DNA of 64,000 nt from the UHGV virus genome UHGV-0147904. One strand, given 5' to 3'. The notes below the pieces were generated by a model. That model was not told where the DNA came from. It saw nothing but the letters and a program-made list of their open reading frames with translations, and searched no databases. Both the position numbers and the translations under genes were made by a program. This DNA is from a virus. Of this stretch, positions 1,744 to 31,907 are shown piece by piece (the stretch's first letter is position 1; each line of letters begins with the position of its first letter).

Positions 1744-4469
<2,726 letters not shown>

Positions 4470-4536: not shown

Positions 4537-7500
4537 ATGAACAAGCTATCTATGGGGGTGTTTCGCTGTTCAAGTGTCAGCGAAATATTGAAATACATTA
4601 GGGCAATAACATCTCACCGAGCGCCGATTAAATACGGCGTGGAAAAGGTGGAAGGCAAAAGCTATGACCGACTGCGCCGTGAGGCGAATCAGAAGGCGAT
4701 AGATTTGCTTAATTCGCTGGTGGACGGCGCGACACTGACAGATGAACAGCGCCAGATCCTGGCTGGGTACACCGGTGAAGGCGGCATTGGCGGGTCCGTC
4801 TCCGAATATTACACACCAAAGCCTATCGCTGAAGGTGTCTGGGAGATCATGAAGCTCTACGGCGCGGACGTAGGTAACACTCTGGAACCATCGGCGGGAA
4901 CCGGCGTTTTTAATGAGACAAAACCGGTTGGTACGGTGATGACCGCGACTGAGATCAGCAGTGTTTCCGGTCGTATAAACCAGTTGTTACACCCGGAAGA
5001 CAGCGTACAGATTTCCCCGTTCGAACAGCTGGCTATAAACACGCCTAACGATTCATTCGACCATGTTGTGGGTAACGTTCCGTTCGGCGGTCGTGATAAC
5101 ACACGCAACATCGATAAGCCTTACGCAGAAGAAACGGACATGGGTTCTTACTTCATGCTCCGCATGCTGGACAAGATAAAGCCTGGCGGATTCATGTGTG
5201 TGATTGTGCCGCCGTCCATTGTTTCAGGTTCAAACATGAAGCGGTTACGCCTGCGCCTATCACGGAAAGCTGAATTTCTTGGCGCTCACCGCTTGCCTAC
5301 CGGTACTTTTGACGCAAACGGGACCAGTACAGTCGTTGATGTGGTGCTGATGCGCAAACATCCGGCAGAGATGGCTGAGAAAATCCCCCTGGTGGATGAA
5401 AGCACTCTCGAATCGGCAAATGTGCTTTGGCCAACGTTTATTTCTGGCAAGTGGTTTGAAAAGGACGGCCGCCGGTTTGTTCATGGCACCCAGGAAAAGG
5501 GCTTCCAGGGGCGTATTGAGGTTCGTGCCGACGGTCAGATTGATAACCAGGCTCTTAAAGCGAAGCTGATTCATCGTTTCGAAAGCCGTATCGACTGGTC
5601 TTTGCTCGATATGGCTGAACCGTCACCGACCGCAGACGTTGTTGGTGAAGGGGAAATGCGCCTGATTAATGGCGTATGGCAAAAATATGCTGGTGGTCGC
5701 TGGATTGAAGCTGATGCCGGGAAGGAACTTAAGATCGATGCTGCCAGTTATGGCGCGGATAGCTGGGAGGCTCTTCAGCGTAACCTGACTACAACAGAAG
5801 GCCGTCTCGGCATGACATTTACCCAGATGGCAAATGTCCGCGATAAGTACACCACATCAATCAGCGACGATATGGTGCAGCTGGTGGACTGGATTAACAG
5901 CCAGCCTGAAAAATACCGTGAACGCTTGTATCGCGGGGCGATGATTGGCCGGATGTTAATTGAATATCAGGACATGAAGGCCGCCGGGCATAGTGCTGAA
6001 CAAATCGAACAGCAGCGCCTTTCTCTGGTATCCCGTTTGCAGGCAGAGATTGACCGTTTTGGTAACCCCGGTCGCGGTCCGATAGCGAAATTGTCGGGGA
6101 GCGGTGCGCGCGCCTGGTTTGCTTTCCGTGGTGCGATTAAGCTGGATGGCACTATTTCTGACGAGCTGACAGGAAAGCTGGTTACGCATGATTCCAGCGC
6201 CAGTTATGACTCCACCAGCTATCAGGACACCCTGCGTTATCTCTATAGCGATCTTACCCGCGATCCAATCCAGCTCGATGATTTCCGCCTTGCGTTTACC
6301 GGCGAACTGCCAGCCAGTGATGAAGAGTTGCTTAATTTATTGGCCAGCACCCCTGGTATTGCGGTTTCACCGTATGGCGGGATTGTTCCGTTCGCCCGCG
6401 CCACCAGCGGCGACATTAACGAGATAGTGGCTCCAAAACAGGAATTTCTTGCCACACTCCCCGACGGTCCAGTAAAGAACAACGTCCTTAATCAGCTGGC
6501 AGCGATCGAAGAGAAGCGCATCAAGACGCCAGCAGAGAATATCCGCTTTAAGCTCAATAGCCGTTGGTTCGACCGCTCCGTCATTCTGGAATTTTTGCAG
6601 GAAAACGGCTATCCGGATCTGCGCTATGTGCAGTCAGTGCAGCTGGAAGGCGACGAAATGGTTTCTGACACCTATCACGGTGGTGATGGTCTGTTCGTCG
6701 GGCACCGATACGGTGTCGTCCAGCGCAAGGATAAAGAAACAGGCGAGATCCGCTACGAGTGGGACCGTAAATCGGGTGAAAACGCGACCGGGTTCCCGGC
6801 ACAGCTGGAAAAGTATCTCAATGGTGCGCGTATCGGTGGCAAAGATAGCGCGACGGCGAACGGCTACCGCGAGCAGATGGCACTGCTTGAGGACCAGTTC
6901 AATAAGTGGATCAAGACGCACGATCGCTACGATGAGCTGGTTGCCAAATACAACGATGTGTTCAATAGCAATATCCCGTATGAACACTCTGGCGATCCGC
7001 TTGGGTTGAAGGGATTAAGCGGTAAGCGCCAGCCATTTGATTACCAGAATAGCGAGGTGCGCCGACTGTCCGAAGATGGGCGCGGCATCCTGGGCTTCGG
7101 CACCGGGCTGGGTAAAACCACGACCGCGCTGGCGCTTGAGGCGTTCAACTATGAGAACGGTCGCTCCACCCGTACTGCGTATGTAGTGCCTAAATCAGTG
7201 CTGGAAAACTGGTATTACGAAGCAAAAGAATTCCTGAGTGAAGAGGCATTCAGTAACTACCTGTTCGTCGGTCTTGATGTGCTGATGGATGGCGATCAGA
7301 TTCGCCAGGTGCAGGTGCTCGATGAGAACGGTAAACCTGTTCTTGGTACTGATGGCACTCCAGTTATGCGCGATGCTCTTAAGCTGGCAGATGAAGCCAC
7401 TATCACGGCGCGGATGAACGCGATCCCGCACTCAAATTACCGTGCAGTCGTGTTTACCAAAGAACAATACGCCCGCATTCCGCTACGTGATGACACCGTA

Positions 7501-16822: not shown

Positions 16823-16839
16823 ATTGCTCTAATAAATTA
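16823..16839. promoter_or_regulatory. C1 operator 17-mer, forward orientation
   Basis: attgctctaataaatta, one mismatch to consensus; upstream of coi/c1. Confidence 0.6.
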
Positions 16840-26207: not shown

Positions 26208-26501
26208 TTAAGGTTCAGACCAGTTATCTTCAATAGCAATGCTTAATCTTTGTAGCCATTCTGCTAATTTCAGCATTGCTTCTCTTTCGCTTAAACCACG
26301 AGGAAAATCATCAAGCGAAATTGTTGGCTTGAAGCCCCCGTAATTATCCATTTCAACTGTCAGATTTTGCTCCAGCACGGTATTCCTTACGCGGCTATTG
26401 TGCCGAAGCAAATATACTGAACGTGATTTATTGGTTTTATGGTCAAACTGATATTCGGTAAGTATCATCTGGCTTTTGCCATGACTATTACCTCTCCACA
26501 T
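26208..26501 (-). CDS. Hypothetical protein
   Basis: ORF trimmed to internal Met (MWRGNSHG...) with GAGGTAAG ribosome-binding site overlapping the stop of an upstream 40-codon hydrophobic peptide. Confidence 0.35.
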   Translation of the reverse strand: MWRGNSHGKSQMILTEYQFDHKTNKSRSVYLLRHNSRVRNTVLEQNLTVEMDNYGGFKPTISLDDFPRGLSEREAMLKLAEWLQRLSIAIEDNWSEP

Positions 26502-26511
26502 ACTTACCTCA

Positions 26512-26631
26512 CTTAATAAAACAACTCCATGCGTAGTTGATGATTTTTTCCCACGTAATATAAATCTGCACTCCGGCAGTAAAACCAAAGCCAACAATTG
26601 CTGAAAAAATCAAAACATTTACTTTTGACAT
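26512..26631 (-). CDS. Small hydrophobic peptide, 40 aa
   Basis: MSKVNVLIFSAIVGFGFTAGVQIYITWEKIINYAWSCFIK; below the ORF-track cutoff; AT-rich. Confidence 0.25.
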
Positions 26632-26679
26632 TATAAATTTTCTCTCGGTGTCGTAGGTGATAGCACCATAATTGATAAT

Positions 26680-26913
26680 TTAGTGAGTTAGCAGTTCCAT
26701 TTTTTGGATGATTTCCGCATGAGCATCATCGTTATCAACACTTAACTCGTTTAATGCCTCTCGCACTACATCAACTTCTTCAGGCTGAAAGAAGTCGTCG
26801 CGGTAATCACCAAATAGAACCGAAACCAGCCTGCCACCAGCAACATCAAGATTGGCGCTAACAGGTGGCTCTTTGCCATCCTCAAATTCGACAACAAAAG
26901 TTAATTTTCCCAT
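26680..26913 (-). CDS. Hypothetical small acidic protein
   Basis: 77-aa ORF. Confidence 0.35.
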   Translation of the reverse strand: MGKLTFVVEFEDGKEPPVSANLDVAGGRLVSVLFGDYRDDFFQPEEVDVVREALNELSVDNDDAHAEIIQKMELLTH

Positions 26914-26989
26914 CGTTACCCCCAGAAGATAAAAATAGCGGCAATCGCCATAGCTACGCCTACAATCGCAAATGCTTCAGGCCAGCTCA

Positions 26990-27322
26990 TTACCGCACCT
27001 CAAGTCTCCATGCCGCCTGACCAATCCGGCTGGCATGGGTATCTTTGGATACTGTTCCGTCTTTAGCCAGCTCCATAAGAATTTTGCGCAAATCTGCCGA
27101 GCGCCATTCTTCATCAGGAAATTCCTTCTCCATTGCCAACCGCAGATTCCAGGTTGCTATCGTGAATGGATATTCACCGCCGAGAGCTTTCTCTTGTAGG
27201 GCAGCACGGGAACGCATCACCTGCAAAACCTTCTCTTTTACATCCATCATTTCGCCTCCTGCGGCGGTTCTGGTAGCGGCATCCAGTGTGATGGAATCCA
27301 CGACGCACCAGGAATTATCCAA
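26990..27322 (-). CDS. Hypothetical protein
   Basis: 110-aa ORF. Confidence 0.4.
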   Translation of the reverse strand: MDNSWCVVDSITLDAATRTAAGGEMMDVKEKVLQVMRSRAALQEKALGGEYPFTIATWNLRLAMEKEFPDEEWRSADLRKILMELAKDGTVSKDTHASRIGQAAWRLEVR

Positions 27323-28128
27323 CCATCATTAGCGTCAGGATGTCCCGGTATGTAAGTCGCCCACTTCATTCGCCAGTCACCTTTCCCGTCAAACTCCCTG
27401 GCAACAAGAACAGCTGTTTTGCTATCCGGCATTCGCTCACTACAGCTTATCCAATCATCCAGAGTTACCGGAGAATTGCCATTTACCAAGTCAGCTCGAA
27501 CATATAGCGTGTCATCATGGTGCTGATTGTGGCTGCACCACGTTAATTCGCTTAACTCGCCATCTTCTGGCCATACTCCAGCCGTTTGCAGCCAGATATG
27601 GGCTGGCGCATCTTTGCAAGGTGTATTAACTGGCAACTTGTAAGTTTGGCTTACAGGTTCGGCACCATGAAGCATGGCGTCGCTCCGCTCTATGCCATCC
27701 AGCGCGATTCGCAGTGCATGAATTGTGGTAGAGCTATCGTTTGGGGCTATTCCATATCGCTCGAATACAGCTAAATGGTTGCGCATAATCTCAGGCGTAA
27801 GCTCTTTGTAAGCATAAGCAAGAGGCTCTGATGCATTATCCGGCACAACCGACGCAGGCGCGGCAGCATAAACAGGAATAACGTCCGCTTGCTCTTTATT
27901 GCTTTCATCCGTTAAAGCCCAGAATAATTTCCCGGCCGGATGTTTGAAAATATAAGCAACTGGCTCTGCTTCCAGCGATGCCAGCGTAATTTCAGCCAGC
28001 TTGAGGTGAATAACCGCCGCATCATAAGCGCCTGGGACTCTTCCCACCGCAACGCGAAGAACCTCAATATTCTTCTTAGCCTGCTCAATCAACTGCTCTT
28101 TGGTGAACTCTTTGGTAATCGTGATCAT
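27247..28128 (-). CDS. Hypothetical protein
   Basis: 293-aa ORF. Confidence 0.45.
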   Translation of the reverse strand: MITITKEFTKEQLIEQAKKNIEVLRVAVGRVPGAYDAAVIHLKLAEITLASLEAEPVAYIFKHPAGKLFWALTDESNKEQADVIPVYAAAPASVVPDNASEPLAYAYKELTPEIMRNHLAVFERYGIAPNDSSTTIHALRIALDGIERSDAMLHGAEPVSQTYKLPVNTPCKDAPAHIWLQTAGVWPEDGELSELTWCSHNQHHDDTLYVRADLVNGNSPVTLDDWISCSERMPDSKTAVLVAREFDGKGDWRMKWATYIPGHPDANDGWIIPGASWIPSHWMPLPEPPQEAK

Positions 28129-28640
28129 GCCGCGTTTCCTTCTTTCTTATTAACAATTACACCGTCATATATTTCATTAAGGTGCCCTCTCAACTCCATG
28201 CGCCTTAATGCAGATAACATGTAATCGCATTCAACCTGCTTATTTCCAGTAAATGGCTTATCGTCAGGATTACCCCAACAGCAATTACCCTTGGGCCACC
28301 CATGTACTTTCCGTACTCTTCCGTTAACAACGTGAAGTAATCCCCAGCCAGGTGGTAAATCCTCAATTGAAATAATTCCCGGCTCACTAATAAAGAATCG
28401 CCAGTCGCCCATTCCAAGAGATGGATTTTTACGAAAACGCTTTTTTCTATCTGCCAACAAGTCAGCACGAGAACATTTCGCCTCTATCAGGCATGATGCT
28501 GAATTTCTGAATCCCATAGCATCTGGCTGTTCTCCGGTACTGGTTACAGCTATAAAGCGGTCATGAAAACAAACCTTGAACCCGTTGCGCTTAAGGAACT
28601 TGTACGCAATCTGACAGAGTTCGCGGTGTGTTAACGCCAT
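28125..28640 (-). CDS. Putative PD-(D/E)XK-type nuclease
   Basis: Trimmed to Met MALTHRELCQ...; motif GEQPDAMGF...CLIEAKCS resembles a D...ExK nuclease core. Confidence 0.35.
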   Translation of the reverse strand: MALTHRELCQIAYKFLKRNGFKVCFHDRFIAVTSTGEQPDAMGFRNSASCLIEAKCSRADLLADRKKRFRKNPSLGMGDWRFFISEPGIISIEDLPPGWGLLHVVNGRVRKVHGWPKGNCCWGNPDDKPFTGNKQVECDYMLSALRRMELRGHLNEIYDGVIVNKKEGNAA

Positions 28641-28641
28641 A

Positions 28642-28830
28642 TCACTCTCCTTTAGTGCGCAAGTGGTTTTTCCAGCGGTTTTGCGCCGCGCTGGGCTTTT
28701 TGCAAAAACCACAATCCATCATCCCGTAATATTTCATCAACCCCATCCGTCGGTTGCTGAGTCTCACCCACTGCCAGACGCCAGGAGCGTTTCTACGAAC
28801 TAACAGAATCTTTGCTTTACGGTTTTTCAT
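28642..28830 (-). CDS. Small basic protein, MKNRKAK family copy 2
   Basis: 62-aa ORF; N-terminus MKNRKAK duplicated in the adjacent upstream small ORF. Confidence 0.3.
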   Translation of the reverse strand: MKNRKAKILLVRRNAPGVWQWVRLSNRRMGLMKYYGMMDCGFCKKPSAAQNRWKNHLRTKGE

Positions 28831-28831
28831 C

Positions 28832-29005
28832 TTACAGCGTACCCTTTCTTCCGCCTGTTCTGTGACGCAGTAGGCTTACGCTTTGCGGCAAAAGCCACCT
28901 GACCAAATGGATGGAGTACCGCTATCTTATGGTTGCTAATAACCAGCTCCACCACACGCACAGGTCGCTGTAAAAAAAGTCGTTTTGCCTTACGGTTTTT
29001 CATCG
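28832..29005 (-). CDS. Small basic protein, MKNRKAK family copy 1
   Basis: About 57 codons, MKNRKAKRLFLQRPVRVVELV...; below the ORF-track cutoff; stop overlaps the next ATG. Confidence 0.25.
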
Positions 29006-29175
29006 CTTTGCTCTCCTGCGTCTCTTTGCTGCTCGTCGTGCCGCTGCAATACCGGTATGGCGGCGCTTTGGTGCCGGGATGATGTTGTCAGCCATCAGGA
29101 CATGTGGCTTTGCAATTAGCGCAGAAGCCCAAAAACGAGTCGGGTACGGTAACAAGCCGATACATGCCACACGCA

Positions 29176-29865
29176 CTACTCACCTCCGTTGATGCGAATG
29201 CCAGCGGCACGGGAATCATTCCATCGCTTTACTTCTTCACGAATTACGTCAATGCATTCTTTCGAATCCATTAGGTAATCTTCATCAAAAAGCCTTTCCT
29301 GTTCGTTTTCTATCGCAACAATGATTGCTTCAACTAACTTTTGTGCCTGAGAACCACTTTCTAACTCTGCAATGCGCTTCTCTGCGGCTTCCAGCTTCTC
29401 GCGCATATCGTCAACGTACTCGACCAGAGATCCGCCAGCAGGAATTTCGCACTCCTCGACCAGTTGGAAGTAGATATCAGCTGCGGCCCGTGTGTTGCTA
29501 TGCCTAGCGTCGCCCATCTCACCTTCACGAAGAGCATCGCGTTCGGCGGTAAGATTGGCTATTTTGCTGTCTTTGCCTTCCAGCTCAACGCGAAGCCTCC
29601 CTACCGTTAGCGCAATTTCCTCGTTCTCCTGGTCGCGGGATTTGATGTATTGCTGGTTCCTTTCCCGTTCATCCAGTAGTGCCAGCACGGTTTCTGGTCC
29701 GGCCAGAAATTTGAAGGCGTTGAGCGCATCAATATCCACACCGTAATCTTTAAGTTCCTGTTCACTTAACAAATCATCATCAGCTGGCAACATTAACAGG
29801 CGTTCCATTGCTGGAATTGCACGTTCCGCCGCCTCACGCAGTGCCTGATAATCAATCTTGCTCAC
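29176..29865 (-). CDS. Hypothetical coiled-coil protein
   Basis: 229 aa; GTG start overlaps the upstream stop as GTGA within a conserved junction cassette. Confidence 0.45.
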   Translation of the reverse strand: MSKIDYQALREAAERAIPAMERLLMLPADDDLLSEQELKDYGVDIDALNAFKFLAGPETVLALLDERERNQQYIKSRDQENEEIALTVGRLRVELEGKDSKIANLTAERDALREGEMGDARHSNTRAAADIYFQLVEECEIPAGGSLVEYVDDMREKLEAAEKRIAELESGSQAQKLVEAIIVAIENEQERLFDEDYLMDSKECIDVIREEVKRWNDSRAAGIRINGGE

Positions 29866-30575
29866 TGGTTGCCTCCTTTGCGAAGCTGGGCAGCAAAGTC
29901 AACTAACCACTCAGTCATTTCAACCTTCCCTACCAGGTCTGAACCAGGGTGCATACAGCAATCACTCTGCGCCGCTTTGAAATCCTTATACTCATATTCT
30001 TGGGCCACCAGATTTTTTGCAGCTTCTATAGCAGCATCCACCCCCTGCGCCCGAACTTCAGCCAGGAAAGCGTCGGTGGCTGGAATTTGCGGCATCCCTC
30101 CGTCTGTTGCGCAGATATACGCATCAGATATTTCATCCTGCTGGCCATCAAACACGTAGCAACAGCCCCTGATAAACAGCTTCATTGAGGCATTCTCCAC
30201 TGCCAGCGCCGTGCGATTACCATCCAGCTCTGCAATGCGCTGTTTTGCGGCATCCAGTTCAATCGACAATTTTTCCAACTGCTCTTGATGCTTCTTGTAT
30301 TCCTGATATGCGTGCCAAGACTGACCTTTGCGCACACTATCAGTGATATCAGTAATCTGTTCTGGTGTTAGCGTGGTCAGTGGCTGTGATGGGAAAATAA
30401 GCACTTTCCCGGAATCCCAATCAAAACCAGCGTGAATTGACTGAACCTCAACTGAAGGTGTTGAACCAATGCTGCCAGGCGAATGAACAACGATTGTTAC
30501 ATCCATATCGCGACGATGGCTGTGGTTGTTGGACAAAATACGATTCACCAACTCAGAAAATTTGGAAAATTTCAT
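29862..30575 (-). CDS. Hypothetical protein, TDAFLAE(V/I)RA paralog A
   Basis: 237 aa; shares PATDAFLAEVRA and C-terminal LRKGGNQ with the 30859-31392 paralog. Confidence 0.45.
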   Translation of the reverse strand: MKFSKFSELVNRILSNNHSHRRDMDVTIVVHSPGSIGSTPSVEVQSIHAGFDWDSGKVLIFPSQPLTTLTPEQITDITDSVRKGQSWHAYQEYKKHQEQLEKLSIELDAAKQRIAELDGNRTALAVENASMKLFIRGCCYVFDGQQDEISDAYICATDGGMPQIPATDAFLAEVRAQGVDAAIEAAKNLVAQEYEYKDFKAAQSDCCMHPGSDLVGKVEMTEWLVDFAAQLRKGGNQ

Positions 30576-30862
30576 GCTGATTCCCCTTTCTCTGCTCTCT
30601 CCTGTCGGAACATCACTATCATCAGGTCGCCTTTTGTCGCTATCCTGGCTGTTGTACCTGGTTCAATGCGGCTAAGCTCAAATGCGTCATAGAACGCTTC
30701 TAATGCCTTCTGGCGTAGTTCCTGTTTGCGCCGTTTTTTCCACTGTTTTAGGAAAATGGAACCCAGCCATCGCCATGTACGGGACATGATGTAAAGCCAA
30801 CCGAGAAGTGCCAGACCGGTATTTAGGAGCGTATCGATCGTTATTGTCGTGTCGATATTCAC
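30572..30862 (-). CDS. Small membrane protein
   Basis: About 96 aa from the GTG within the junction cassette (VNIDTTITIDTLLNTGLALLGWLYIM...); one TM segment. Confidence 0.35.
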   Translation of the reverse strand: MNIDTTITIDTLLNTGLALLGWLYIMSRTWRWLGSIFLKQWKKRRKQELRQKALEAFYDAFELSRIEPGTTARIATKGDLMIVMFRQERAEKGESA

Positions 30863-31392
30863 TGGCTGCTTCCTTTGCGAATCTGTTCCGCCCATTCTTC
30901 AAGGGATTTCTCCGCATATTCACCAGACAGGCCATCAATCGGATGCGCTTCATTAGCCAACTCTTCTTTCGCTGACAAAATCATGCGTGTAACGTCGAAA
31001 ACTTCACGCAAAGACTTATTGATAAATCCGTGATTGAACGCAGCAGCAAGACGGCTGGCGGTATAGTTAATCCCCTCGTTGCGTGCTTCCGCACGAATTT
31101 CAGCCAGAAAAGCATCGGTAGCTGGAGTTTCGCTGTGGTGTAGGGCATCGTTGATAATCATTGCAGCAACACCAGCCTGCCCTGCATCCGTGACCGACAC
31201 ATGCTCAAGAGTTACGGCCATTGCGTTTTTCAGCCCATCAAAGCCGGTCCATTTGATAACATCTTCACATCGTTTATCACCGGGCGTATGCACCGCATAC
31301 GTACCAGTGCCCGGCGAAATAAATGCGACCCATTCGCCCTGTGTTGCCTGTTTTGCTATCTCACGCAGTGCCCGGTAATTAATTTTGCTCAC
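30859..31392 (-). CDS. Hypothetical protein, TDAFLAE(V/I)RA paralog B
   Basis: About 177 aa from the GTG at the junction cassette; PATDAFLAEIRA; C-terminal IRKGSSQ. Confidence 0.45.
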   Translation of the reverse strand: MSKINYRALREIAKQATQGEWVAFISPGTGTYAVHTPGDKRCEDVIKWTGFDGLKNAMAVTLEHVSVTDAGQAGVAAMIINDALHHSETPATDAFLAEIRAEARNEGINYTASRLAAAFNHGFINKSLREVFDVTRMILSAKEELANEAHPIDGLSGEYAEKSLEEWAEQIRKGSSQ

Positions 31393-31628
31393 TGGCTGCC
31401 TCCTTTGCGGAGTTGCGCTTCGATGCACGAAAAAAAAGACTCCCGAGTATGACTGTTAAGAGCTGGTGCGAACGCCGCGTTAAGAACGGCAGCATCACAG
31501 CCGTCATCAATATAGAGCGCAATTTTTTTCTCCAGGCGCGCTTTGGCTTCCTGCAACTGCATACCCCGGCACGCACGCGGGATATAATCAGCAATTTGAG
31601 CGATAGCTTTTTCGTTCTGTTTAAACAT
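31389..31628 (-). CDS. Small hypothetical protein
   Basis: 79 aa ending LRKGGSQ, same C-terminal cassette. Confidence 0.4.
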   Translation of the reverse strand: MFKQNEKAIAQIADYIPRACRGMQLQEAKARLEKKIALYIDDGCDAAVLNAAFAPALNSHTRESFFSCIEAQLRKGGSQ

Positions 31629-31824
31629 GCTTCACCTCGATAGGCTTGATGGTGTCTAACAGCAGTCGACGGCGCGTATTTTCTGCAAAGTGGCGGCGTC
31701 CGGTATCTTTGTGGTAAAACTCATTTTTGCCGACGACCCACATCCGCTCTGTTTGGTGCAGTTTTTTTACCTGCGGACCGTCTTTGGTGATCACGGTGCC
31801 GGTATGGGTTTTTACGATTGTCAT
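31621..31824 (-). CDS. Small hypothetical protein
   Basis: 67-aa ORF. Confidence 0.3.
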   Translation of the reverse strand: MTIVKTHTGTVITKDGPQVKKLHQTERMWVVGKNEFYHKDTGRRHFAENTRRRLLLDTIKPIEVKHV

Positions 31825-31907
31825 GCCACTACCTATTCGAACAGATGAACGAGACAGGCTGATGCTCGTCCACCTGAAAAACTGACGATTTGATGCATAC
31901 TCACGGT

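What the first reader, a model, noticed from the sequence alone, without database searches (positions are those of the whole stretch)
29860..31415. Three-fold repeated stop/start junction cassette linking paralogous genes
A roughly 25-nt element tCACTGG(c/t)TGC(c/t)TCCTTTGCG(a/g)A occurs three times on the plus strand, at 29862-29885, 30859-30882 and 31389-31412. Read on the coding (minus) strand it encodes a shared C-terminal LRKGG(N/S)Q tail of the upstream gene, an AAGGAGG ribosome-binding site, and a GTG start overlapping the TGA stop as GTGA. The proteins it links include two paralogs sharing PATDAFLAE(V/I)RA. This also suggests the ORF-track ATG starts at 30895 and 31428 are wrong and the true starts are the GTGs at 30862 and 31392. 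The pattern implies recent tandem duplication and recombination within the operon.
Basis: seen in the sequence. Interest (0 to 1): 0.45.

Follow-up and report, generated by a model that had tools for sequence, protein, structure and literature searches.

The report
Shared gene-boundary box in phage accessory genes
A 21-base stop/start junction repeated three times in this P1-type phage-plasmid is a very common "boundary sequence" of E. coli prophage accessory-gene arrays: it carries the translation signals for the next gene and marks the points where gene modules have been swapped, so it is real but ordinary and not a local tandem duplication.

Summary
CGCAAAGGA(G/A)GCA(A/G)CCAGTGA occurs three times on the coding (minus) strand, at 29862-29882, 30859-30879 and 31389-31409. 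About 0.01 copies are expected by chance.

Each copy holds the last six codons of one gene (RKG[G/S][N/S]Q*), a Shine-Dalgarno sequence, and a GTG start overlapping the TGA stop.

The "recent tandem duplication" reading is not supported. The linked genes share only short islands of similarity, and no tandem repeat is detectable.

- **How common it is.** The box is in more than 120 viral contigs and in 1,326 of 5,426 complete E. coli genomes. It is also at the hkaH/hkaG junction of phage HK620, the phage in which "boundary sequences" were described.
- **Shuffled flanks.** In 122 junctions, 24 upstream and 30 downstream module types occur in 72 combinations.
- **Breakpoints.** Alignments with P1-type relatives (0-3 copies each) break at the boxes.
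- **Level of constraint.** Codon analysis shows the core is constrained as nucleotides, not as a peptide.

It is best read as a translational-coupling junction that doubles as a homologous-recombination joint. It lies in the C1-repressed pmgT operon, a known variable region of P1-like elements. Already known in kind; low interest.

The parts
29862..29882 (-). Boundary box J1: CGCAAAGGAGGCAACCAGTGA. It is the tail RKGGNQ* of the 237-aa gene, plus the SD AAGGAGG and the GTG start (29865) of the Ea22-like 229-aa gene. Conserved sequence continues upstream to about 29897 (FAAQL codons) and downstream to about 29817 (Ea22 head).
   Evidence: alignment breakpoints with relatives at 29862/29864 (L185, L186, L187), 29876 (JL22) and 29877 (RCS47)
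30859..30879 (-). Boundary box J2: CGCAAAGGAAGCAGCCAGTGA. It is the tail RKGSSQ* of the Ea22-like 177-aa gene, plus a weaker SD and the GTG start (30862) of the DUF4752 gene.
   Evidence: breakpoint at 30859 against vB_EcoM-813R1 (L189)
31389..31409 (-). Boundary box J3: CGCAAAGGAGGCAGCCAGTGA. It is the tail RKGGSQ* of the 79-aa gene, plus the SD and the GTG start (31392) of the Ea22-like 177-aa gene.
   Evidence: breakpoint at 31385 against L185/L186, where a 214-aa gene follows the box instead
31389..31628 (-). 79-aa gene (PHROG 1344, unknown function) ending in box J3
30859..31392 (-). Ea22-like gene, 177 aa from GTG 31392, flanked by boxes on both sides. It is an internally deleted form of the 233-aa version found in relatives.
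   Evidence: Pfam PF13935 E=2.5e-14, profile 1-82 only; 168-nt deletion at the 15-nt repeat 31222-31236
30572..30862 (-). DUF4752 gene, 96 aa from GTG 30862
   Evidence: Pfam PF15944 E=1.7e-42; PHROG 667 full length; annotated identically in RefSeq relatives
29862..30575 (-). 237-aa gene with no Pfam match. Its C-terminal module runs PATDAFLAEVRA...FAAQLRKGGNQ and is shared with Ea22-type proteins; it ends in box J1.
29176..29865 (-). Ea22-like gene, 229 aa from GTG 29865
   Evidence: Pfam PF13935 E=1.1e-28, profile 1-139
30048..30088 (-). PATDAFLAEVRA island in the 237-aa gene, conserved at the peptide level. It is also an intragenic mosaic breakpoint.
   Evidence: D3, 85% to 31090-31130; breakpoint at 30082 against L187
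31090..31130 (-). PATDAFLAEIRA island in the Ea22-like 177-aa gene
   Evidence: breakpoint at 31124 against L189
31908..32636 (-). pmgT homologue, first gene of the operon that holds the array
   Evidence: 97.7% identity to the P1 pmgT region
32815..32831 (-). C1 repressor operator (P1 OpmgT/Op88 equivalent) over the operon promoter
   Evidence: ATTGCTCTAATAAATAT, 1 mismatch to the consensus I supplied; the position matches the P1 annotation by homology

Best explanation
The repeated element is a conserved gene-boundary ('linker' or 'boundary') sequence of the Ea22/exo-xis-type accessory-gene arrays of E. coli temperate phages. Here the array sits in the C1-repressed pmgT operon of a P1-like phage-plasmid. 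The 21-nt core does two things. (1) Inferred from the anatomy: it is a translation-initiation and coupling signal. A consensus Shine-Dalgarno sequence lies inside the last codons of the upstream gene, 6 nt before a GTG that overlaps the upstream TGA, so ribosomes finishing one gene can start the next. The tail RKGG(N/S)Q is largely a by-product of these nucleotides. (2) Shown comparatively, with the mechanism inferred: the same 21-36 nt, plus about 45 nt of Ea22 N-terminal coding sequence where present, sit between many unrelated genes. That gives a patch of homology at which general or phage-encoded homologous recombination swaps, inserts or deletes whole genes while keeping frame and expression. 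The three copies in this window mark joints between modules drawn from that shared pool. They are not products of a local duplication.
For: - **Nucleotide-level rather than peptide-level constraint.** In a sample anchored on the Ea22 head rather than on the box, the four-fold degenerate Ala codons just upstream use all four codons (top codon 16/32 and 11/28). The Gly codons inside the core are invariant (GGA 48/48, GGC 46/46), while Asn is often replaced by Ser or Lys.
- **The box persists without coding.** The 16-nt AGGAGGCAACCAGTGA occurs in 41 of 203 cases where no ORF of 30 codons or more reads into it.
- **The tail follows the junction type.** The IIRQ...NAM[W/L]R family ends RSGKK* when followed by one particular gene, and RKGGNQ* when followed by any of at least 10 different genes. 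Homology switches at TGGCG.
- **Combinatorial flanks.** 122 junctions from IMG/VR give 24 upstream and 30 downstream flank clusters in 72 combinations. Conservation falls to background about 15 nt upstream of the core, and immediately after GTGA when the downstream gene is not Ea22.
- **Breakpoints in P1-type relatives fall on the boxes.** They are at 29862/29864, 29876, 29877, 30859 and 31385. Whole genes are present or absent next to the boxes: a 99-aa gene after J1 and a 214-aa gene after J3 in L185/L186. 813R1 has the J2-type tail joined directly to the 99-aa gene. Copy number is 0-3 among nine P1-type elements.
- **Prevalence.** The 76-nt junction is in 1,326 of 5,426 complete E. coli genomes, at 1,719 places and up to 8 per genome. 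The box with 1 mismatch is at HK620 hkaH/hkaG.
- **Operon context.** There is a C1 operator at 32815-32831 and no convincing minus-strand terminator until about 26940.
- **Literature.** Short conserved boundary sequences are cited as a route to mosaicism (Clark 2001 and Susskind & Botstein 1978, as cited in PMC3029335 and PMC2327257). ea22 genes are described as mosaic (PMC10834534). pmgT-humD is listed as a highly variable region of P1-like elements (PMC9603915).
Against: - No experiment here shows translation from the GTGs, coupling, or recombination at the box. All of this is comparative inference.
- Breakpoints at gene boundaries are also what selection would leave after random illegitimate recombination.
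- About half of Ea22 heads use other recurrent junction types, so the box is not required.
- The first IMG/VR sample was selected on the exact core. Conservation inside the core was therefore judged only from the head-anchored sample, which itself allowed at most 3 mismatches.
- The in-window copies differ at 1-2 of 21 nt and share only 21-27 nt, which is short for efficient RecA-dependent exchange.
- I could not read Clark et al. 2001, so I cannot confirm that this exact box is among those it describes.
Confidence: 0.75

Rival explanations
1. One reading: the three copies arose by recent tandem duplication of a gene-plus-junction unit inside this operon, followed by divergence and recombination.
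For: There are three direct copies on one strand within 1.55 kb. Two flanking genes are both Ea22-like, and two share PATDAFLAE and the tail.
Against: The spacings are unequal (997 and 530 nt) and no tandem array is detected. Similarity is confined to islands of 27-75 nt at 80-89% inside otherwise unalignable DNA. Protein identity is 27% over 91 aa, or only 16 N-terminal residues. The PATDAFLAE islands differ mostly at synonymous sites, which indicates old divergence under peptide constraint. Each junction, with its own specific flanks, is found intact in other phages and prophages.
Confidence: 0.04
2. The box is only a strong ribosome-binding leader that belongs to downstream genes. Mosaic joints are made by illegitimate recombination anywhere, selection keeps the joints that fall at gene boundaries (the Hendrix-type model), and box homology plays no part in the exchange.
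For: The 16-nt sub-box occurs with several different left-hand ends, including non-coding ones. Other recurrent junction types exist. Nucleotide-level constraint fits a translational function.
Against: The same box precedes about 30 different downstream sequence clusters, including at least 10 unrelated non-Ea22 gene families, and follows 24 different upstream clusters. It is therefore not the private leader of one gene. Invariance extends past the SD into the spacer and the preceding CGC, which RBS function alone does not require. By contrast, the RSGKK junction has a single downstream partner.
Confidence: 0.15
3. The conserved feature is a functional C-terminal peptide, (FAA)QLRKGGNQ, shared by these proteins (for example a binding or degradation tag). 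The DNA repeat is then only a consequence.
For: The FAAQL part does behave as a peptide-level motif, with free synonymous variation. It and PATDAFLAE bracket a common C-terminal module in many Ea22-type proteins.
Against: Within the core, synonymous sites are frozen while Asn changes to Ser or Lys, Gly to Ser, Asp or Val, and Arg to His or Lys. The same family carries alternative tails depending on junction type. The sub-box persists where it is not translated as a tail.
Confidence: 0.03
4. The box is the site of a dedicated element: an integron-like attC, a structured RNA, or a site-specific recombinase or nuclease target.
For: The arrangement superficially resembles an array of promoterless cassettes separated by a repeated site.
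Against: Folding is no better than shuffled sequence (z = -0.31, -0.05, 0.00). There is no Rfam match in 26500-33500. The box is 21 nt and not palindromic. Read directly from the sequence, it does not contain Chi (GCTGGTGG).
Confidence: 0.03

Closest known systems
Short conserved 'boundary' or 'linker' sequences of lambdoid phages (Susskind & Botstein 1978; Clark et al. 2001 on HK620; cited in PMC3029335, PMC2327257 and PMC2839356)
   Same: A short conserved sequence at a gene boundary, flanked by non-homologous modules in different genomes and proposed as a focus for homologous recombination. HK620 itself carries this box, with one mismatch, at hkaH/hkaG in its early-left operon.
   Different: Here it lies in a P1-type phage-plasmid operon controlled by C1 rather than in a lambdoid pL operon, and it occurs three times. 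I could not read the 2001 paper, so I cannot say whether this particular box is one it lists.
Mosaic ea22 genes of lambda and Stx phages (PMC10834534, PMC8614690)
   Same: A shared N-terminal segment and coiled coil (IPR025153/PF13935) with interchangeable C-terminal domains. Two genes here are Ea22-like.
   Different: Lambda ea22 itself has a different leader (TAAACAGAGAGGTTCGAAGTG) and no box. Those papers treat protein domains, not the junction DNA.
PeSL mobile regulatory cassettes of T4-type phages (PMC2839356)
   Same: A conserved expression signal between genes that doubles as the homology for modular shuffling.
   Different: PeSL is an early promoter plus a stem-loop terminator in intergenic DNA. 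This box is an RBS and stop/start overlap inside coding sequence, with no promoter or hairpin.
Translational coupling through overlapping stop/start codons (ATGA/GTGA), general bacterial and phage operon biology (my own knowledge)
   Same: A 4-nt overlap with an SD inside the end of the upstream ORF.
   Different: Ordinary coupled junctions are gene-specific. This one is an identical 21-mer reused between many unrelated gene pairs.
Integron gene cassettes with attC sites
   Same: Arrays of promoterless genes separated by a repeated site and expressed from one upstream promoter, with variable cassette content.
   Different: There is no attC-like imperfect palindrome and no folding signal. No integron integrase is implicated, and exchange is presumably by homologous recombination.

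Membership tests
Lambdoid boundary/linker sequence | A short conserved sequence located at a gene boundary | tested here: met
   The 21-nt core spans the stop and start of adjacent genes at all three sites.
Lambdoid boundary/linker sequence | The same sequence is flanked by non-homologous modules in different genomes | tested here: met
   24 upstream and 30 downstream flank clusters in 72 combinations among 122 junctions; tails and heads are listed.
Lambdoid boundary/linker sequence | Homology between related genomes breaks at the sequence | tested here: met
   Breakpoints at 29862/29864, 29876-29877, 30859 and 31385 against P1-type relatives; conservation profile.
Lambdoid boundary/linker sequence | Recombination actually occurs preferentially at the sequence | not testable with these tools
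   This needs phage crosses or recombineering assays.
Translationally coupled stop/start junction | Start codon overlaps the upstream stop, with an SD 5-9 nt upstream inside the upstream ORF | tested here: met
   GTGA overlap, with AAGGAGG (AAGGAAG in J2) 6 nt before the GTG.
Translationally coupled stop/start junction | Downstream translation depends on translation of the upstream gene | not testable with these tools
   This needs reporter fusions or ribosome profiling.
Ead/Ea22-like protein family (PF13935) | Match to the family profile above the curated cut-off | tested here: met
   The 229-aa protein scores E=1.1e-28 (101 bits, cut-off 27) over profile 1-139. The 177-aa protein scores E=2.5e-14 over profile 1-82 only. 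The 237-aa protein has no match.
DUF4752 (PF15944) | Match to the family profile above the curated cut-off | tested here: met
   E=1.7e-42 (143.8 bits, cut-off 27) for the 96-aa protein started at GTG 30862.
Tandem duplication | Head-to-tail units of equal length with similarity along their whole length | tested here: not met
   Spacings are 997 and 530 nt. TRF finds no array, and only islands of 27-75 nt are similar.
Integron attC site | Imperfect inverted repeat that folds into a hairpin recombination substrate | tested here: not met
   Folding energies equal those of shuffles, z from -0.31 to 0.00.
Integron attC site | An associated integron integrase | not tested
   I made no search for an integrase in the window.
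PeSL-type mobile regulatory cassette | Early promoter plus stem-loop terminator between genes | tested here: not met
   No promoter-like or terminator-like site at the boxes and no hairpin.
P1-like phage-plasmid (Punavirus), pmgT operon | Synteny and high identity with P1 pap-pmgT, with a C1 operator upstream | tested here: met
   97.7% identity over 1,559 nt to P1; operator at 32815-32831; P1 annotation.

The most novel reading that the evidence does not exclude
The 21-nt core is more than a passively shared RBS. It may be an actively maintained universal adaptor that pools the accessory genes of lambdoid prophages and P1-type phage-plasmids into one exchangeable cassette set. That would be an integrase-free analogue of an integron, in which selection for recombination competence (or continual gene conversion) keeps even the spacer and four-fold sites invariant, and in which the box hands its C-terminal tail to whatever protein lands upstream.
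Probability: 0.2. Interest if true: 0.5.

Novelty: already known. Interest (0 to 1): 0.2.

Why it matters
This is a clean, quantifiable example of the classical "linker" model of phage modular evolution: one 21-mer joins dozens of unrelated genes in about a quarter of complete E. coli genomes, and it links the gene pools of lambdoid prophages and P1-type phage-plasmids. In practice it fixes the start codons of two genes and explains why this part of P1-like elements varies so much. It does not reveal a new kind of element or mechanism.

Tried and rejected
- **Tandem duplication:** rejected. TRF finds nothing, similarity is confined to islands, and the spacings are unequal.
- **Structured RNA or attC-like hairpin:** rejected. 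Folding z-scores are near 0 and there is no Rfam match.
- **Chi site:** by direct reading, the plus strand of the box has ACTGG(T/C)TG, which is not GCTGGTGG.
- **Functional tail peptide:** rejected on codon analysis and alternative tails.

Dead ends:
- Clark et al. 2001 is not held.
- A literature search on the hka gene names returned only unrelated papers.
- My first HK620 fetch and the P22 fetch covered the wrong genome segments. P22 ead was not examined.
- PHROGs gave only "unknown function" for every gene in the array.
- The species-representative genome scan returned a single Escherichia contig. It says little beyond a narrow host range.
- I did not use the large protein-homology, structure-prediction or fold-search tools, because the question concerned the junction DNA rather than protein function.
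Full report
**1. The observation**

The motif CACTGGYTGCYTCCTTTGCGRA occurs exactly three times in the window, at 29863-29884, 30860-30881 and 31390-31411. About 0.01 matches are expected from shuffles. The genes lie on the minus strand. Read in that direction, the copies are CGCAAAGGAGGCAACCAGTGA, CGCAAAGGAAGCAGCCAGTGA and CGCAAAGGAGGCAGCCAGTGA. Each one contains:
- the last six codons of one gene (RKGGNQ*, RKGSSQ*, RKGGSQ*);
- a Shine-Dalgarno sequence, AAGGAGG, or AAGGAAG in the middle copy;
- six bases further on, a GTG that overlaps the TGA stop.

The repeat finder recovers the family independently: 27 nt, three copies, 89% identity. It also shows that the outer two copies extend to 75 nt at 80%, because both are followed by an Ea22-type N-terminus (alignment). 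The only slip is that the long-ORF start at 31428 is GTG rather than ATG.

**2. Context**

The window is a P1-type phage-plasmid. The stretch 31942-33500 is 97.7% identical to P1 pap-pmgT. A C1 operator (ATTGCTCTAATAAATAT) lies at 32815-32831, where P1 has OpmgT/Op88, and 15 operator-like sites occur in the window against 0.32 expected.

The gene order downstream of pmgT (31908-32636) is:
- a 67-aa gene;
- a 79-aa gene, ending in box J3;
- an Ea22-like gene of 177 aa, ending in box J2;
- a DUF4752 gene of 96 aa;
- a 237-aa gene, ending in box J1;
- an Ea22-like gene of 229 aa;
- further small genes, a 195-aa gene and a DUF551 protein.

No convincing minus-strand terminator appears before about 26940. 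By homology with P1, the array is probably one C1-repressed operon; this is an inference. P1 itself has only pmgT-pmgU-pmgV here and no box. This pmgT-humD stretch is listed as one of eight highly variable regions of P1-like elements (PMC9603915). PHROGs gives "unknown function" for every gene in the array.

**3. Start codons**

- Pfam Ead_Ea22 position 1 aligns to residue 2 of the protein begun at GTG 31392.
- DUF4752 positions 1-83 align to residues 7-89, and PHROG 667 positions 1-93 to residues 1-93, of the protein begun at GTG 30862.
- RefSeq annotation of related records uses the same 4-nt overlaps, as does HK620.
- The sequence upstream of these starts is completely different in other genomes, so an N-terminal extension cannot be conserved.

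No direct expression data exist here.

**4. Not a local duplication**

- The spacings are 997 and 530 nt, and Tandem Repeats Finder finds no array.
- The 237-aa and 177-aa proteins align only over their C-terminal 91 residues, at 27% identity, and most of the matches lie at the two ends.
- The two Ea22-like proteins share only 16 N-terminal residues.
- DNA similarity is limited to islands: the box, the Ea22 head, a 41-nt PATDAFLAE island (85%) and a 35-nt coiled-coil island.
- By direct reading of the two sequences, the PATDAFLAE islands differ at four synonymous and two non-synonymous positions. That is old divergence under peptide constraint, not recent copying.

**5. The box is widespread and its flanks are shuffled**

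In the 122 junctions that had 200 nt on each side, the flanks fall into 24 upstream and 30 downstream clusters, in 72 combinations.
- Upstream tails include ...NAMWRKGGNQ, ...DFAAQLRKGGNQ, ...EWAEQIRKGGNQ and ...SCIAAQIRKGGNQ.
- Downstream heads include many Ea22 variants, DUF4752, and unrelated genes starting MTVCLIDK, MSGKRMTN, MTGHAAILDMCCGS, MSNSARLQ, MSVTVEKI, MSESKCQ, MSIVQRCR and MTNRFYMMC.

Taking one representative per cluster, conservation falls to background about 15 nt upstream of the core. It ends at GTGA unless the downstream gene is Ea22, in which case about 45 more nucleotides are conserved.

The 76-nt J1 junction is found in 1,326 of 5,426 complete E. coli genomes, at 1,719 places and up to 8 per genome; 1,477 places are chromosomal and 242 on plasmids. 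Among one-genome-per-species representatives, the exact box appeared only in one Escherichia contig, so its host range is narrow.

**6. Nucleotide-level, not peptide-level, constraint**

To avoid selecting on the core, I anchored a second scan on the Ea22 head.
- Roughly half of the heads carry the box or a near variant. The rest use a few other recurrent junctions, among them the lambda ea22 leader and the GGGTGATGTGATATGA junction seen in p886Rt_IncY.
- In the 48 distinct box-bearing sequences, the two Ala codons just upstream use all four synonymous codons (top codon 16/32 and 11/28). Inside the core, GGA is 48/48, GGC 46/46, AAA 48/48 and CAG 46/48, while Asn is often replaced by Ser or Lys.
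- The three in-window copies follow the same rule. By direct reading, they differ only by non-synonymous changes within the core, whereas the AQL codons just upstream of J1 and J3 differ at three synonymous sites.
- The 16-nt AGGAGGCAACCAGTGA also occurs in 41 of 203 cases where no ORF of 30 codons or more reads into it.
- One upstream family ends either RSGKK*, always before the same gene, or RKGGNQ*, before at least 10 different genes. Homology switches at TGGCG.

The tail is therefore set by the junction and is not an intrinsic functional peptide. FAAQL and PATDAFLAE, by contrast, behave as genuine protein motifs.

**7. Breakpoints in P1-type relatives**

Box copy number among nine P1-type elements is:
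- 0 in P1 and in RCS47;
- one weak match (4 mismatches) in JL22;
- 2 in Ro157c2YLVW and in 813R1;
- 3 in p886Rt_IncY, pUSDA5905_1, pE2855-2 and this window.

blastn of 26500-33500 against the relatives breaks at the boxes:
- 29862/29864 in three plasmids, which carry an extra 99-aa gene after J1;
- 29876 in JL22 and 29877 in RCS47;
- 30859 in 813R1, where the J2-type tail is joined directly to the 99-aa gene;
- 31385 in two plasmids, which carry a 214-aa gene after J3.

Two further breakpoints, 30082 and 31124, fall inside the PATDAFLAE islands. A second repeated ATGA junction (28811-28831 and 28984-29004) is also an indel breakpoint against pE2855-2.

**8. Mechanism**

Shown:
- the anatomy of the box;
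- its nucleotide-level constraint;
- its reuse between unrelated genes;
- the coincidence of homology breakpoints with it.

Inferred:
- that it drives translational coupling;
- that exchange occurs by homologous recombination across the 21-36 nt box, or 75-80 nt where an Ea22 head follows. The agent would be host RecA or phage single-strand-annealing recombinases, which tolerate short and diverged homology (PMC2327257).

The main rival is illegitimate recombination followed by selection for joints at gene boundaries. That rival has difficulty with one identical 21-mer bordering unrelated genes on both sides. There is no sign of a structured RNA or an attC-like site.

**9. Comparison with known systems and verdict**

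Short conserved boundary sequences at module junctions are an established idea for lambdoid phages (Susskind & Botstein 1978; Clark et al. 2001, as cited in PMC3029335, PMC2327257 and PMC2839356). HK620, the phage in which they were described, carries this very box with one mismatch at hkaH/hkaG, followed by an Ea22-like gene. I could not read that paper to confirm that this particular box is listed. The mosaic nature of ea22 genes is also published (PMC10834534).

The finding is real, and its anatomical reading and start-codon correction are right. Its evolutionary reading, local tandem duplication, is wrong. The feature is an ordinary, very common and already recognised kind of phage gene boundary.

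Noticed in passing
window 31222-31236 (within the Ea22-like gene 30859-31392): The 177-aa Ea22-like gene is an in-frame deletion derivative. Four relatives carry a 233-aa version with 168 extra nucleotides, and the two alignment pieces overlap in a 15-nt repeat at the scar. This explains why only profile positions 1-82 of 139 match Pfam Ead_Ea22.
   Followed up: partly
window about 31836-31905: Between the pmgT stop and the 67-aa gene lies a short remnant ORF (VSMHQIVSFSGG...) of a PAPS-reductase-family gene. The full 873-nt gene is present at this spot in pUSDA5905_1 (L186 6250-7122). The window lacks 789 nt of it, with a 6-nt overlap at the junction.
   Followed up: partly
window 28811-28831 and 28984-29004: A second repeated stop/start junction, GATGAAAAACCGTAA(A/G)GCAAA (95% identical, ATGA overlaps), begins two adjacent small ORFs that both start MKNRKAK. 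pE2855-2 has only one copy, and the alignment breaks inside the repeat. It is the same principle with a different box.
   Followed up: partly
window 30048-30088 and 31090-31130: The PATDAFLAE(V/I)RA islands are conserved as peptide (4 synonymous and 2 non-synonymous differences). They also coincide with intragenic homology breakpoints against relatives (30082, 31124). Together with the FAAQL...tail they bracket a hypervariable C-terminal segment seen in many Ea22-type proteins.
   Followed up: partly
loci L002-L182 (IMG/VR), for example the junction ...AATGCGATGTGGCGGAGTGGGAAGAAATGA: The IIRQ...NAM[W/L]R protein family has two alternative ends. RSGKK* is always followed by the gene starting MKQMSLIEMDGFLKG. 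RKGGNQ* is followed by at least 10 different genes. So one junction type has a single partner and the other has many.
   Followed up: partly
L192 (lambda NC_001416) 2897-2925, minus strand: Lambda ea22 starts at a GTG preceded by TAAACAGAGAGGTTCGAA. This is one of the other recurrent Ea22 leaders in the viral sample, and lambda has no copy of the box in 27500-33500.
   Followed up: yes
window, 15 sites including 740-756, 16823-16839, 32815-32831, 48634-48661 and 51921-51937: There are 15 matches (3 mismatches or fewer) to the P1 C1-operator consensus against 0.32 expected, including an overlapping inverted pair at 48634-48661. This confirms a P1-type immunity regulon across the window.
   Followed up: no
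window 29360-29394 and 30223-30257: A 35-nt island (83%) encoding LEAAEKRIAELE / LDAAKQRIAELD is shared by the coiled-coil parts of the 229-aa and 237-aa proteins. It is another short conserved patch inside otherwise unrelated sequence.
   Followed up: no
L191 (Escherichia sp. MOD1-EC7003) 6710-6730: In the collection of one genome per species, the exact box was found in a single Escherichia contig only, although it is in about a quarter of complete E. coli genomes. The element seems essentially confined to Escherichia and its close relatives.
   Followed up: no
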